Assembly: GCA_036172245.1 (NCBI GenBank)
Contig: JAYWIR010000040.1
Span: forward strand, 1,674,001-1,738,000
DNA: 64,000 bases
Source of the DNA: Raillietiella orientalis
Lineage: Eukaryota
Direction of reading: 5' to 3'
Shown here in pieces: positions 8,632-14,600 of the stretch (positions are counted from its first letter, which is position 1; each line of letters starts with the position of its first letter). The position numbers were made by a program, and so were the translations under genes. The notes under the pieces are model-generated. The model was not told where the DNA came from and searched no databases. It saw nothing but the letters and a program-made list of their open reading frames with translations.

Positions 8632-11600
8632 CTAGATAGAACTTTTATTTTCTACGTTCATATCCATCTGTCTTTTGTCAAGGCCTGCACGTGCTCTGAA
8701 CATCTGTAACTTCTGCAAACAGTCTTCACTAAAGTTAACCATACATGTTTCACTGTCTGAAAAGTGAATTATTTGAAAAATGTGCTGGATAGTAAACAAA
8801 TTAATAAACATTGCTCCCTCAACTAATTACCAATTGGGTATTCGTTGGATTTGCCATTTTCAACATTTTCTACATGATGGTTAGTGCTTGCCAGTTTCTC
8901 TGTATTTTTTCTGCTTTTTCTCTCTTGATCAATGTAATGAAGCTTCTTATCAATGTACTGCTGGAAAAACGTGGTAGATTTCTTAACAAAGGGGGATATA
9001 TCTACATCAGGATTGTTCTCTTTAAATTCGTACAACATAATCAGTCCCTAAGAAATGGAACATAGACAAAAATGCAAATAGTGCATATTACCTCTTCATT
9101 GTGCTCTTTGGAACCAATCATTTTGAAAATTTCTGACATGGCTTGCTGCACAGCTTTGCTGATGCGTGGTGATCGTTGTTTTTTCTCTGTGGAGTCTTGT
9201 TTTTCTTTCTGGAAAAACTTATACATGCCACTGAGAGTTCCCAATCTCACATCAAACATTTTGGAGGCATAACGATAAAGTTCCGACTCTTCTTTGCAAT
9301 CAATTTTGGAAAAATCTCGGAGTAGGTCCTTATTTTTAATCTTGGCAAGAGCATGCAATAGGGTTTTCACAGTTCGAAGAGGGCCATCATTAGCACGCTC
9401 TTTCCAAACACAAATAGGAAAGGTCTAGCATTACAGACAAGTAACTTAATAAGAATTAATTAAAGTTGCACAGACCTTCAAGAAAAGATGCATATCTAGC
9501 AAAATGACATCAACAGCAAGTTCAGTTACTGGATACTTATTCTTCTTCAAATCATTAATCCACTTCCAAATACACTTCATTACCAATTCTAAATATTGCT
9601 CCTTTCGTGGTGCTGATATGTCAAATGCAACAGCTTCAGTCAACAGAGACAGGAGAGCTCTACAAATACACATACATACACATATGTATACATCTGCCAG
9701 ATTGATATTCCAAGTGAATCAAGGTACTAACCGAATAACATTAGTAGCACAACTCTGTTCAATTATTCGAATCAACAAAATGTTCAGATGTCGTAGAAGG
9801 TAGGAATTTGTTGAATTTACAAGTTTCAATTCTAGCATAATGCTCAATAGCATCTGGATTAAATCATGGAGGGTAGGATGGCAAGCCGCCTTTGCCAAGT
9901 CAGGAACTTCGAAGACAAGCAACAGCACATTAATGACACTTGAGAATATTTTCACAGAATCCTCTTTGGGATCTGAGTAGTTAGCAAATGATCTGCTGTG
10001 ATTCATTTTGCATTGCACAGTACACATAGTAAGCAACTGATCTATTTTAGTCTGCAGCACCATCTGATAACGATTATTTTTGAGCAAGCTTTCCATTTGT
10101 AACAAGGCCAACAGACAATTTGATGGCGAAGTGGAACCAATCTGTGAGATAGCACTGTCTATAACATGACAAACACCTGATATATTGCAAAGACTTTTAA
10201 TAATAGGAGAGGAAGAGTCAGATGTATTTGCTGACACTACAGATTTCGCACTGCTTTCTTGAGAAACAATAAAAGGTTCTTGTTCTGAAAACTGTTTTTC
10301 TAGTGATTCTAAATCTAAAGAAAAGCCATGATTGGGTGAACTGAGAGTAGCTTCAGGAGGTACTTTGGTCACCTTTGGCACTATAACTTGAGTCCCTTGT
10401 TGCAAATGAACACCAGAAGTTGGTCGTGAAAGTCTTGTGGCTTTTGATGGTGCTTCACTGACACCTTTTGAAGGTGGCAACGATTCACTGCACTGCACTG
10501 GAGGACGAGTTTTGCCAGCTCTTTTAATCCGCTCCTCCAACAGTGACATATTTTTATCAGAAAGCTGGCCCACATATTTGTACACTTTTTCTCCTTCTAA
10601 ATTGTAAGCCTTGACTACTGCATTCAAGGCCGCATTACGCACAGCATTATCTCGATCTCCAATATGCTTTCCAATTTCTTTCAGTGCTATTCCCGGGGAT
10701 GGGACACAAATAAGAATACCATAGTTTTCGATCAGAATGCCTAATTCCTCTAAACATTCAGCTCTCTGACGGGAATTTTTGCTCTTCAAACCCTCTGTCA
10801 AATGAGCAAACAGGCGATAAGGGGAATAAACACGGCAAAGGTGATGCAGTATCTGATGAACACCATTTCGCACTGCATCTTTTGGATCTCCAATCTACGA
10901 TGGACACTCAGTTTGATATATGAAAGGGTTACTCACCTTCTGGATCAGGTAGGGAATAAAGCAATTTGCCTCGAATTCTGTCAATTCATATGGAATGGTA
11001 ATCAGCAAAAGGAGAGCTGCTTGAACAAACTCTAGGCAACGGAGCATAACACTTGGATTGGTCTCAAAAAATCGAAGTGTGACCCACTTCAACAGTAAAT
11101 CAATATTGGAAACCAGACTATCTTGGTTTTCTTTGTTTAATTCCTAAAATGCTATTACTGGTAGCCAAAACATGGCAATCTACCCCATGAAGAACATCCA
11201 GGGCACGAATGTGGAATTTGAAGTCTACATGAAACAAATATGTCAACAGTACTTTATTGAAGCCAGCAGTTGTCATCTGCTCTCTTAATTGTTCAACAAA
11301 CTCCTGCTTCGGCGACGGAAAAGACCATCTCAAGGCCTGAAAGAGCGATGTTTATTTTAATTTTTTATTTTTTTAAATATAATGTGCATCTCTACCTTGA
11401 ACTTTTGTTCGTCGCTAAATCTCTGTGATTTCAAATTATTGATCTGCATCATCGGGCATCCACTTAAATCATCATCTTTTTTTTTAGGTTTCCCCACATT
11501 ACCCAAACCCTTGTGTTTAGAAACAAATAGAAAGCTTTGTTTGTTCTCAGTAAATACCTTAGTTTTTGAAGGCGCTGCTTTAACAATACGATGCTTTGCA

Positions 11601-14600
11601 ACATCTGGTTTGTCACCTGTTTCTACCACTGTATCATAAGACAAACATGACAGTTTGTCAGTGTCCATGTTCGTCATCACTGCATCTTGCAAGAGGGTTT
11701 TTTCATCACGTACTCTGTCTGCATTACTGCCACCTAGTCTGGGTTTTGGCTAAATAAACATCACCGATTTAACGCTGTCCATCATTTGAACATTACCTTC
11801 TTGTATCTTTCTTCCAGTTCTAGCATCAGAGGGGAGGTAAGGTCATCTTCATACTGAGATGAATAAGCAGAGGGCTCCCTTGAGTCATTTGAAATCTGCC
11901 TTTCACTTTGCTTTGCTGGTTTAGAGCCTCTGACTGGTATCGGTGGTTTAAGGTCTTCCACCTAATTGCAATCAGCACTCCTGAATGTATTTTTTTTTTT
12001 ACTGACTTTAGCATATTCAGCATTTATCTGCTGTTCAATGGAGGATTTCTCATCTTTAAAAAAAGCACGAAAACTAGGTCCTTGAAACAGAAAACAAGTT
12101 CCCAATAACTGAAATGCTGCCGACCGAACACTTGCATTATTTGCACCAATAGCCTTCTTAATGTACCCAGCTACGAAACTTGCTTGCAGACTAGTTTTCG
12201 GAATTAACAAAATTTTGATTCTGAGGTCCACTTACATGAATCCAAATTCTTGCAATGCTTGTGACAACCAGACAAGCACATCAGATTGTATCTTGGGATT
12301 TTTCTGCTTTTCAAAAGCATGTTCCAACATTTCTGTGATGACAGATTCCAAGCCAACCACATCAGCAATGCACTTCAGTAAGTCACCAGCTATTTCACCA
12401 TTTTTGGTATCAGCAAGTTTATCTGTCAGGTCACATAGACAGGATTGAGCACTTGTGCTGAAAAATTGTTTTGATGTATGAATACACATGTGAGTAATGT
12501 GTGTACAGAATTGCATATCAAAAGTGAGAAGCAGAAGTCAATACTTATTAAATCCAGGCATTGTAGACAAAGTTCGCAAAGCTTCCATCTTCACCTTAAG
12601 AACTTGAAAATTATTATCTTTAAGACCTGGCTTCTTTATGATTAGCATAACATATGCAGGGACAAGTGTTGCATTATTGTGTGTGAGGATTGACTATACC
12701 AGACAGAATTATGAAAAGCATCATATCATCTACCTGAAGCAGCTGCTCTGTGCTACTGAGGCGAACTTTCCAATTTGCGTCAGCCAAACCATCCAAAACT
12801 TCCTTGGCAACATACTGTGCCAATTCATTTTCCGCCTCTTCTGGTGAGAGATTCTTTTCAAATGTCTGCTCTTTTTCGATTTTCTTAGAAATTACGGCAC
12901 CTACAAGTTCTCGTGCTATCTCACAGAACACTTTTGCCAACCTTTTTTAACAATCACTGGTTTCTTTGAAACACCTTTTCCTGATGCTGGTAACACAGAA
13001 GCCGGCTCTTTAGTTGTTTGCAACCCCTGTTGATTTTTGTGCACACGGGAAGCAATGGGTTTAGTTATTTCAGCCTTTTCACAATACTCTTTGACTTTGG
13101 ATAATTTCAAAGGGTCAACACCCTCCAGAAGAGGTGAAATCTGTCTTTCTCCTACAATTTTCATAATAGTTCCCAAAACCTCTGCAGCTGAATCCCTCAC
13201 AACTGCATCTATAACAAAACAAGATGCTCCAACATCTGAATAATTAGTTATACCTGATTCATTTAAAGCTTTCAGCAGACCAACAGAAAGAGTCTTCAAT
13301 ATTTTTTTTGAAAGAGCATTCGCTGGGTGTTGCTTGAACACACGAACTAAGAAAAAGCAAGTTTCAGACTGTATGGATGGATTCTTATTGTTCAAATGAT
13401 TTGCTATATCTTCTTGAAGTGCATCCAAAGTTGTCTTCGAAGGTAATCAAAACAAAGTAAAACAAGTAGAGAATTACCGACAAGAAAATTGCATCTGCTG
13501 CTTCTCGCATAGCTGTTATTACAGATGTTTTTTTTTCTTTAAATTTCTCAAAAATTACTTGCAGGCAGACAAGTGCATATGGTTGAAACTGCTTCTTCAA
13601 TCCTTTGGCTATACCAGCCAGACAGTGTCCAGCTAAAGCTACTACCATGATATTTGTGTCTTTTCCTATAATCTGAAGTATATGCTATCTTTTCTGTCTT
13701 CAGACATGCCTTACCTTTTTTAGTGCTTTTACTAGCTCAGAATAATCCCCACTTTCAAGTTTAACATTCTCAGTCATTGGTTTAAGGATGTCAAGAACTT
13801 CTTTACGTTCTTTCCAGTTTTTGGCTTCTATTTTTTCATAAAAATCTTTAGGTAAGTTTGCTAAGATGTTGACAGGTATTTCATAAGTATCTGATTCTTG
13901 AGATTCATCAACTTCATCTCCTTTCAAAATACGCATTGATGATATTTTCTATAATCATAAAATTTATGAACCTAAAGCCACATCCTCTTGTCCAGTTTCT
14001 TTGACCCGTTCCTGCTGTGAACGAAGAAGCCGAATTTGTTGTGGTCGATCAGTTGGCAACTGCTGGAACTCAGCTTCCAGTTCAGAGAGCTATATAAGAT
14101 GCAAGTCTGGAAACTATATTTATAATAGAAAATCAAGTTACCTGAACAGGTTTCAAGTCTTTTAACTGCTGCCTCAGTGACGTTCCTATCCATCGATACA
14201 ACTCAATAATTAGTTTTTTCCCTTCTGCTCTCACGTTTAAGTCTCTGTCTTCGAGTATGACACCAATCTGCTTAACCAGAGGTTTCAAGCTAATGATTTT
14301 TGGACCAAACTCTCTAAAATTACATGCATGACTCATTAAGATCTGAATAAGCAATACTGATCCAGATGTGGATCGCTGATTTGATCTCAATGAAGAAATC
14401 CAAAGTGAAAAAAAATCGCGCCTTTATTCAGCAGAAATTATTTTTGCATGTTATTATTTTTACCCGAAAGAAAATATTCAAAATGACGAATATTTAATGT
14501 GCTTTTTGATGTTCCGAAGGTCATGAGTAAGCAGAGTACACAAAAAATTATATCATTTCCAGAGAACTTAATTTGTAAATGGAAACACAAATAACCGGGA

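What the first reader, a model, noticed from the sequence alone, without database searches (positions are those of the whole stretch)
11396..12007. XMAP215/CKAP5 with four TOG domains: TOG4 is missing
Seen in sequence: the end of TOG3 ([20 protein letters not shown]) is followed only ~450 nt later, including one or two <50-nt introns, by the pre-TOG5 motif ([25 protein letters not shown]). That leaves ~120 aa of low-complexity linker, with no HEAT repeat, no NWKxR motif and no intron large enough to hide a ~230-aa TOG. Established knowledge: vertebrate ch-TOG, fly Msps and plant MOR1 have five TOGs, C. elegans ZYG-9 has three and yeast Stu2 has two. Inference: this is an intact TOG1-2-3-5 architecture, a natural deletion variant and possibly an intermediate in TOG-array reduction. 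The terminal LKKRLERIK-type helix of ch-TOG was also not found.
Basis: partly seen in the sequence, partly recalled or inferred. Interest (0 to 1): 0.75.

Follow-up and report, generated by a model that had tools for sequence, protein, structure and literature searches.

The report
Microtubule polymerase gene lacking TOG4
An apparently intact crustacean-type gene for the microtubule-growth enzyme XMAP215/CKAP5 carries four instead of five tubulin-binding TOG domains because the fourth is cleanly absent, a natural counterpart of laboratory deletion constructs that still polymerise microtubules.

Summary
The minus strand from 17085 to 8632 carries a CKAP5/XMAP215/Msps gene that I modelled as 23 exons and 1713 codons, with no in-frame stop and 22 GT-AG introns. 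Twenty-one introns are 38-111 nt and one is 2211 nt.

Position-specific HMMs find four TOG domains:
- TOG1, 349 bits
- TOG2, 332 bits
- TOG3, 200 bits
- TOG5, 311 bits

The TOG4 HMM gives only weak cross-hits on the other TOGs. It finds nothing in the 157-aa linker (11961-11396) and nothing new in any of the 2035 six-frame ORFs of the 64-kb window. Pfam finds nothing in the three linker exons.

None of 270 database relatives shows TOG3 followed directly by TOG5. Nine show 1-2-5, including a mite, a copepod and a filasterean, and two show 1-2-4-5.

The protein sits inside Pancrustacea. The gene most likely encodes a working polymerase, because an engineered Msps TOG1-2-5 array rescues polymerisation (PMC5461023).

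Not shown: transcription, read support, single-copy status, or the state in close relatives. No genome, runs or near relatives were available. This is a new variant of a known kind, of moderate-to-low interest.

The parts
8632..17085 (-). CKAP5/XMAP215/Msps gene. The model has 23 exons, a 5139-nt CDS and 1713 aa, with ATG at 17085 and stop TAG at 8634-8632. Exons: 17085-17026, 16976-16783, 16731-16525, 14313-14142, 14089-13972, 13920-13715, 13672-13478, 13434-13254, 13208-12958, 12919-12734, 12693-12569, 12457-12236, 12178-12007, 11961-11797, 11749-11558, 11509-11396, 11336-11184, 11143-10937, 10894-9732, 9659-9476, 9424-9092, 9047-8831, 8756-8635.
   Evidence: Homology-guided dynamic programming plus hand curation of junctions. 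There is no in-frame stop and all 22 introns are GT-AG. Homologues are named CKAP5 or mini spindles. Junctions are not verified by RNA.
14015..17079 (-). TOG1 (residues 3-236), interrupted by the only long intron (2211 nt, 16524-14314)
   Evidence: TOG1 HMM, 349 bits. Pfam PF21041 scores 68.2 bits on exon 2.
13063..13876 (-). TOG2 (residues 266-493)
   Evidence: TOG2 HMM, 331.8 bits
11944..12844 (-). TOG3 (residues 554-769), covering HMM positions 2-229 of 229. The HR-A loop NWK motif is present.
   Evidence: The TOG3 HMM scores 200 bits; the TOG4 HMM scores 13.9 bits on the same stretch. The TOG3 score relative to TOG1/2/5 is 0.61, against a median of 0.95.
11396..11961 (-). 157-aa linker that stands where the TOG3-TOG4 linker, TOG4 and linker 4 stand in 5-TOG proteins. 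It consists of three exons (55, 64 and 38 aa) and two mini-introns (47 and 48 nt). It keeps the post-TOG3 KPPxPxRG motif, a short basic patch ([24 protein letters not shown]) and the start of the pre-TOG5 motif.
   Evidence: reading; alignment; no Pfam family; TOG4 HMM -1.5 bits, not above shuffles; pI 8.76
11750..11796 (-). 47-nt phase-0 intron (GTAATG...ATTTAG) at the point where the alignment places most of the missing TOG4
   Evidence: Its length is typical of this gene's introns, which range from 38 to 74 nt for 20 of the 22.
11510..11557 (-). 48-nt intron that is in frame and free of stops. Retention would add 16 residues, so whether it is spliced is not settled.
   Evidence: ORF 11357-11749 reads through it; the two DP settings disagree
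10472..11434 (-). Pre-TOG5 motif / presumed HR 0 ([21 protein letters not shown]...) and TOG5 (residues 980-1181)
   Evidence: TOG5 HMM, 311 bits. Pfam PF21041 scores 33.1 bits on exon 19. Alignment.
8635..10471 (-). C-terminal region aligned with the C-terminal (TOG6-containing) region of homologues. The last exon (8756-8635) carries a [16 protein letters not shown] motif that aligns with the vertebrate YLERLKILRQRCGLD.
   Evidence: The tail HMM hits ORF 8635-8826 at E 0.0093, 13.6 bits, the best of 2035 ORFs. Sequence.

Best explanation
This is the animal's CKAP5/XMAP215/Msps microtubule polymerase gene, and it has lost TOG4 together with most of the serine/lysine/proline-rich linker 4.

What remains is TOG1-TOG2-TOG3, a 157-aa mostly non-globular linker with a short basic patch, TOG5 with its N-terminal extra repeat motif, and the C-terminal region.

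The loss most likely arose as a genomic deletion of the TOG4 exons between two introns, which left an ordinary 47-nt intron at the join (inferred).

The protein most likely still works as a polymerase. TOG1 and TOG2 would deliver free tubulin, TOG5 and the basic patch would hold the lattice, and the C-terminus would bind partners such as TACC (inferred from the family). TOG4 is dispensable for polymerisation in experiments. An effect on spindle length or nucleation is possible but untested.
For: Gene integrity:
- 1713 codons are open across 23 exons, and all 22 introns are GT-AG and of typical size.
- There is no N in the window.

Domain content:
- Four position-specific TOG HMMs hit strongly and in order. 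The TOG4 HMM gives only cross-hits.
- As a control, the same HMMs in 123 of 270 database proteins, plus 19 with one domain reported in two pieces.
- Pfam finds nothing in the linker exons.
- Conserved motifs flank the gap on both sides.
- The NWK/DFK HR-A loop motifs of TOG1, 2, 3 and 5 are present (translation).

Lineage:
- The protein falls within Pancrustacea with 99 SH-aLRT support.

Precedent:
- Natural 1-2-5 and 1-2-4-5 arrays exist in public proteins of a mite, a copepod and a flea.
Against: - No RNA or DNA reads could be laid on the locus, so the junctions and the assembly are unverified.
- No genome was held, so a second, 5-TOG copy elsewhere cannot be excluded.
- No close relative exists in the searched collections. 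The best full-length identity to the 391-aa exon is 36-39%, so conservation of the 4-TOG state cannot be shown.
- The end branch is long (0.59 against 0.24 for Daphnia), and TOG3 is unusually diverged relative to TOG1/2/5. Both would also fit a copy under relaxed constraint.
- The linker is only weakly basic (pI 8.76). Linker 4 of XMAP215 is described as lysine-rich with a high isoelectric point (PMC13376574, passages).
Confidence: 0.62

Rival explanations
1. The window holds a duplicated, diverging or decaying copy of CKAP5. The functional 5-TOG orthologue would lie elsewhere in the genome.
For: - The end branch is long, 0.59.
- The TOG3 score ratio is 0.61, second lowest beside 104 database proteins with complete arrays.
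- The terminal helix of vertebrate ch-TOG was not found.
- No genome was available to count copies.
Against: - 1713 codons are open and every splice site is canonical.
- Tubulin-binding loop motifs are kept.
- Earlier notes on this genome describe many of its genes as divergent, so the long branch may be genome-wide (unchecked notes).
- From recalled general knowledge, CKAP5 is single-copy in most animals.
Confidence: 0.17
2. Assembly artefact: a segment of roughly 1 kb or more holding the TOG4 exons was collapsed or dropped between 11396 and 12007.
For: No read support could be obtained. The window lies next to a GC-rich repeat domain, a setting where assemblies can be poor.
Against: - The three introns in the stretch are 45, 47 and 48 nt with GT-AG ends, the modal size for this gene.
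- The frame is kept through all of them.
- A random collapse would rarely leave a normal-sized intron and an open frame.
- There is no N and no repeat at the join (reading).
Confidence: 0.12
3. TOG4 is present but hidden. It could be encoded by cassette exons elsewhere in the window, or be too diverged to recognise within the linker.
For: MAFFT places the end of exon 14 (...[15 protein letters not shown]) on the first helix of TOG4. It places the start of exon 15 (...[15 protein letters not shown]...) on its last HEAT repeat.
Against: - That resemblance is not significant: the TOG4 HMM scores -1.5 bits and 45 of 200 shuffles do as well.
- 157 aa cannot hold a 230-240-aa TOG.
- No TOG4 hit occurs in any of the 2035 ORFs of the 64 kb.
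- The one tblastn hit outside the gene (57890-58138, E 2e-4) matches the low-complexity linker of the query and has no TOG4 HMM hit.
Confidence: 0.04

Closest known systems
Pentameric XMAP215 family members (Drosophila Msps, human ch-TOG/CKAP5, Xenopus XMAP215)
   Same: TOG1, TOG2, TOG3 and TOG5 classes stand in the same order. The post-TOG3 and pre-TOG5 motifs, the C-terminal region and the tail L..L...R...GLD motif are shared. The window protein has 58% identity to Daphnia over the TOG1+2+5 columns.
   Different: TOG4 and most of linker 4 are absent. The protein is 1713 aa against about 1950-2030 aa. The final LKKRLERIK-type helix was not found.
C. elegans ZYG-9 (trimeric array), and the 1-2-5 proteins in public sets (Brevipalpus obovatus XP_074596153.1, a Tigriopus gene model, Pigoraptor, four unnamed)
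   Same: These are reduced arrays that keep the TOG1/2-type domains and the TOG5-type domain (PMC5461023 passages).
   Different: They lack both TOG3 and TOG4, whereas the window protein keeps a complete TOG3. The mite proteins form a separate chelicerate clade, so that reduction is independent.
Engineered Msps deletion constructs (delta-3-4 = TOG1-2-5; Byrnes and Slep 2017, PMC5461023)
   Same: TOG4 is removed while TOG1, 2 and 5 are kept. This supports the inference that polymerase activity survives.
   Different: Those are laboratory constructs that also remove TOG3. In the passages I read, no single TOG4 deletion was described. Their spindles were shorter, and that phenotype is unknown here.
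Xenopsylla cheopis putative microtubule-associated protein (UniRef100_A0A6M2DFG6, 1758 aa)
   Same: It is also a four-TOG member of the family in an arthropod (TOG1, TOG2, TOG4, TOG5, with only 80 residues between TOG2 and the next domain).
   Different: The missing domain is TOG3, not TOG4. I did not check that record further.

Membership tests
XMAP215/Dis1/CKAP5 family | N-terminal TOG1 and TOG2 class domains with the HR-A loop tryptophan | tested here: met
   TOG1 HMM scores 349 bits and TOG2 HMM 332 bits. PF21041 scores 68.2 bits on exon 2. NWK motifs are in the translation.
XMAP215/Dis1/CKAP5 family | TOG5-class domain preceded by the extra N-terminal repeat (HR 0) | tested here: met
   TOG5 HMM scores 311 bits. 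The pre-TOG5 motif aligns column for column with homologues. The fold itself was not predicted.
XMAP215/Dis1/CKAP5 family | C-terminal domain (TOG6 region) and TACC-binding tail | tested here: inconclusive
   433 residues align to the C-terminal region of P0100. The tail HMM hits at E 0.0093. Equating that motif with the ch-TOG 1932-1957 TACC3 site (PMC10037420 passage) is my inference from position, and binding was not tested.
Pentameric (metazoan/plant type) TOG array | Five TOG domains, including the bent TOG4 | tested here: not met
   There is no TOG4 by HMM, Pfam or tblastn in the gene or in the whole window.
ZYG-9-type trimeric array | Only TOG1/2-type domains plus a TOG5-type domain, with TOG3 and TOG4 both absent | tested here: not met
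   A full-length TOG3 is present, at 200 bits over HMM positions 2-229 of 229.
XMAP215/Dis1/CKAP5 family | Microtubule polymerase activity | not testable with these tools
   Inferred only from the retained domains and from PMC5461023.

The most novel reading that the evidence does not exclude
Arthropod XMAP215 arrays may be trimmed repeatedly from five TOGs towards the 1-2-5 core, and this crustacean-type lineage may be caught part-way. On this reading TOG4 is already gone and TOG3, the most diverged of its remaining TOGs, is under relaxed constraint. That would make the gene a natural single-TOG4 knockout for asking what TOG4 (and the TOG3-4 pair) does for spindle length and nucleation.
Probability: 0.25. 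Interest if true: 0.5.

Novelty: new variant of a known kind. Interest (0 to 1): 0.35.

Why it matters
The field treats the five-TOG array as the rule outside yeast, with C. elegans ZYG-9 as 'a notable exception', and states that why TOG number varies is unknown (PMC5461023, passage). The role of TOG4 is still called open (PMC13376574, passage).

A natural TOG1-2-3-5 protein would show that TOG4 can be dispensed with on its own in a living animal. The 1-2-5 and 1-2-4-5 proteins I found in mite, copepod and flea records point the same way. Together they suggest that TOG3 and TOG4 are the evolutionarily labile part of the array, as the deletion experiments predict.

This is a modest, confirmatory point and not a new mechanism. 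It rests on one unverified assembly.

Tried and rejected
- Whole-genome search: no genome is held for this window.
- Sequencing runs: none was listed and no RNA holder was listed.
- Earlier notes by place, by sequence and for relatives gave nothing on this gene.
- Metagenome scan with the 387-aa exon: 283 pattern matches, none a relative by tblastn.
- Exhaustive representative search: 817 proteins at E<=0.001, none closer than 39% over the whole exon. The closest pieces are short unnamed fragments, with a best of 72% over about 100 residues of TOG5.
- Vestigial-TOG4 idea from the MAFFT alignment: rejected as unsupported.
- tblastn hit of P0001 residues 1055-1132 at 57890-58138: treated as low complexity, since it has no TOG4 HMM hit.
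- The tree with the site-mixture model did not finish in time. The tree reported is LG+G4 'quick'.
- My first two dynamic-programming models read through intron sequence at exon 4 and chose weaker junctions in the linker. I corrected these by hand. One search failed because two anchor strings were wrong.
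Full report
**What is in the sequence**

The first 20 kb of the window are AT-rich (33-41% GC apart from one 50% patch) and the rest is 52-67% GC. On the minus strand between 17085 and 8632 lies a gene whose largest exon (9732-10894, 387 codons) finds proteins named cytoskeleton-associated protein 5 or mini spindles. These come from spiders, crustaceans, molluscs, insects and vertebrates, all at only 32-38% identity (699 proteins at E<=0.001 among 7341 candidates, best 120 listed).

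tblastn of four full-length five-TOG homologues against the window matches their TOG1, TOG2, TOG3, TOG5 and C-terminal parts in order on the minus strand. Their TOG4 part is left without a strong match, for example residues about 829-1137 of the spider protein P0001 and 877-1124 of P0100.

**Gene model**

I built the model with a homology-weighted dynamic programme over GT..AG introns and corrected several junctions by hand against the alignment. The corrections were the exon 4 and exon 9 acceptors, the two junctions flanking exon 14, and a last exon.

The final model has 23 exons, a 5139-nt CDS and 1713 codons, with no in-frame stop. It has 22 GT-AG introns. Twenty are 38-74 nt, one is 111 nt and one is 2211 nt. 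Exon GC is 39% and intron GC is 31%. The window contains no N.

The junctions are inferred from frame, splice signals and homology. None is verified by RNA.

**The finding's stretch**

Read directly, TOG3 ends ...QQINAEYAK at 12007. Three exons of 55, 64 and 38 residues follow (11961-11797, 11749-11558, 11509-11396), separated by introns of 45, 47 and 48 nt. After a 59-nt intron comes ALRWSF..., the conserved run-in to TOG5.

The linker is therefore 157 residues. It begins with the post-TOG3 motif ([12 protein letters not shown], the same spacing as in homologues). It ends with the pre-TOG5 motif (KKKDDDLSG...[15 protein letters not shown]), as the alignment with 22 homologues shows.

The 48-nt intron is in frame and stop-free, so it could also be retained, which would add 16 residues.

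**Is a TOG hidden there?**

I built five position-specific HMMs from 21-22 five-TOG homologues. On the spliced model they give:
- TOG1: 349 bits, residues 3-236
- TOG2: 332 bits, residues 266-493
- TOG3: 200 bits, residues 554-769, covering HMM positions 2-229 of 229
- TOG5: 311 bits, residues 980-1181

The TOG4 HMM gives only cross-hits on those same domains: 43.9 bits on TOG2, 13.9 on TOG3, 13.0 on TOG1 and 10.9 on TOG5. On the linker alone it scores -1.5 bits, and 45 of 200 shuffled linkers score as high or higher (46 shuffles gave no hit at all).

Against all 2035 stop-to-stop ORFs of at least 15 aa in the 64-kb window, the TOG4 HMM hits only exons of the other TOGs (best E 1.3e-4 on a TOG2 exon). 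Pfam finds no family in any of the three linker exons at E<=10. It does find PF21041 (TOG) on exon 19 (33.1 bits), exon 12 (14.9 bits, below cut-off) and exon 2 (68.2 bits).

MAFFT lays the end of exon 14 on TOG4's first helix and the start of exon 15 on its last HEAT repeat. The shuffle test shows this is not distinguishable from chance, so I do not claim a vestige.

**C-terminus**

The C-terminal region aligns throughout (433 aligned residues). A tail HMM found one more exon (8756-8635; E 0.0093, the best of 2035 ORFs). That exon carries [16 protein letters not shown], which aligns with the vertebrate YLERLKILRQRCGLD.

By position this should be the ch-TOG 1932-1957 TACC3-binding stretch described in PMC10037420 (passage read). 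That equation is my inference. It is also missing or different in some arthropod homologues in the alignment.

**How unusual is the architecture?**

Running the same HMMs over all 270 proteins returned (fragments included) gave the following:

| Architecture | Proteins |
|---|---|
| 1-2-3-4-5 | 123 |
| Five-TOG with one domain reported in two pieces | 19 |
| 1-2-5 | 9 |
| 1-2-4-5 | 2 |
| N-terminally incomplete, ending in ...5 (5; 5-5; 5-5-5; 4-5; 3-4-5; 2-3-4-5; 1-3-4-5; 2-4-5; 2-5; 1-5; 2-2-5) | 117 |
| TOG3 directly followed by TOG5 | 0 |

Named examples are:
- 1-2-5: Brevipalpus obovatus (mite, 1542 aa), a Tigriopus gene model (1526 aa, named) and Pigoraptor (filasterean).
- 1-2-4-5: Xenopsylla cheopis (flea, 1758 aa) and a Rhodnius record. 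The Rhodnius record has a 290-residue gap that may hide a weak TOG3.

In the 1-2-5 proteins only about 165-170 residues separate TOG2 from TOG5, and that spacer is a basic Ser/Lys/Pro/Ala-rich linker. Reduced arrays therefore already sit in public protein sets.

Four literature searches turned up no paper describing a natural TOG1-2-3-5 array or these arthropod reductions. For most hits I saw only listings and abstracts. For PMC4142611, PMC5461023, PMC13376574 and PMC10037420 I read passages. Supplements were not opened.

**Lineage**

A tree of concatenated TOG1+TOG2+TOG5 used 50 rows and 712 columns, with LG+G4, a quick search and SH-aLRT support only. I chose the rows as 22 named and 27 unnamed long proteins plus the window protein.

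The tree puts the window protein inside a 12-row Pancrustacea clade (support 99). Its nearest row is Daphnia (58% identity) and its end branch is 0.59. Within that clade the fork is unresolved. The mite 1-2-5 proteins form their own clade among chelicerates, so their reduction is independent.

Holding the window protein and the 1-2-5 copepod together costs 9.6 log-likelihood units (AU p = 0.136). That grouping is neither supported nor rejected. Earlier notes on the same genome also call it a crustacean-like arthropod with 42-50-nt introns and sharp GC domains. Those notes are unchecked, but they agree with what I see.

**TOG3**

The TOG3 score divided by the mean of TOG1, 2 and 5 is 0.61. This is the second lowest beside 104 database proteins with complete arrays that were not used to train the HMMs. 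The median is 0.95 and the lowest is the Cimex lectularius (bed bug) record, at 0.25.

The sample is dominated by vertebrates, so this is only a hint that TOG3 is less constrained here.

**How it most likely works**

Shown: domain content and order.

Inferred from the family: TOG1 and TOG2 bind free tubulin and carry most of the polymerase activity. TOG5 with HR 0 binds lattice tubulin. A basic linker adds lattice affinity. The C-terminal region binds gamma-TuRC and TACC (PMC5461023, PMC13376574, PMC10037420, passages).

[quoted passage not shown] A protein lacking only TOG4 should therefore polymerise microtubules.

The open points are two. First, the short basic patch (net +9 over 24 residues within a linker of pI 8.76) may or may not replace linker 4. 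Second, spindle length or nucleation may be altered.

**What remains open**

No genome is held, no run was listed, and a metagenome scan found no relative. The exhaustive protein search found nothing closer than 39% over the exon.

Expression, assembly correctness, copy number and the age of the loss are therefore all untested. The in-frame, normal-sized mini-introns argue against an assembly collapse. The long open frame argues against a dead copy.

**Verdict**

The 4-TOG reading is supported for this assembly, and the 'intermediate' reading is not established.

This is a new variant of a well-known family and is consistent with published deletion experiments. Its interest is moderate to low unless relatives and transcripts confirm it.

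Noticed in passing
window 1-20000 versus 20001-64000: There is a sharp compositional step. The gene-bearing left part is 33-41% GC and the right 44 kb is 52-67% GC, with only GC-rich, repeat-like open frames and no convincing conserved gene. Earlier notes describe similar GC domains elsewhere in this genome.
   Followed up: partly
window 30394-31259 (+): An isolated fragment of eukaryotic large-subunit rRNA lies inside the GC-rich domain. It scores 669 bits against Rfam RF02543, with 866 nt matching model positions 665-1888 of 3401, so large parts are missing.
   Followed up: no
window 208-588 (+) and 1294-1832 (-): The neighbouring genes are compact. One is a SAP30-type exon (PF13867 at 75 bits, PF13866 at 51 bits). 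The others are exons of an RNase PH-type exosome subunit (PF03725, PF01138).
   Followed up: partly
window 17640-17940 and 19200-19630: Two copies of one dispersed element lie upstream of the gene. Near-identical open frames appear in both places on both strands (for example ...RDCQPNSDGISNR... on the minus strand and ...FLRTDLKFHQNLADNHVKDMILNK on the plus strand).
   Followed up: no
window 11510-11557 (-): A 48-nt intron candidate is in frame and free of stops, and it ends in AAG.
   Followed up: partly
database proteins P0169, P0008, P0130, P0135, P0140, P0209, P0210, P0133: XMAP215-family proteins with only TOG1-2-5 occur in a mite (Brevipalpus), a copepod gene model (Tigriopus), a filasterean (Pigoraptor) and four unnamed records. 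A flea protein is TOG1-2-4-5. I found no paper describing these.
   Followed up: partly
window 5800-8000: A patch of about 50% GC lies between the CKAP5 3' end and the next AT-rich stretch. It has long GC-rich open frames on both strands and no family assigned.
   Followed up: no
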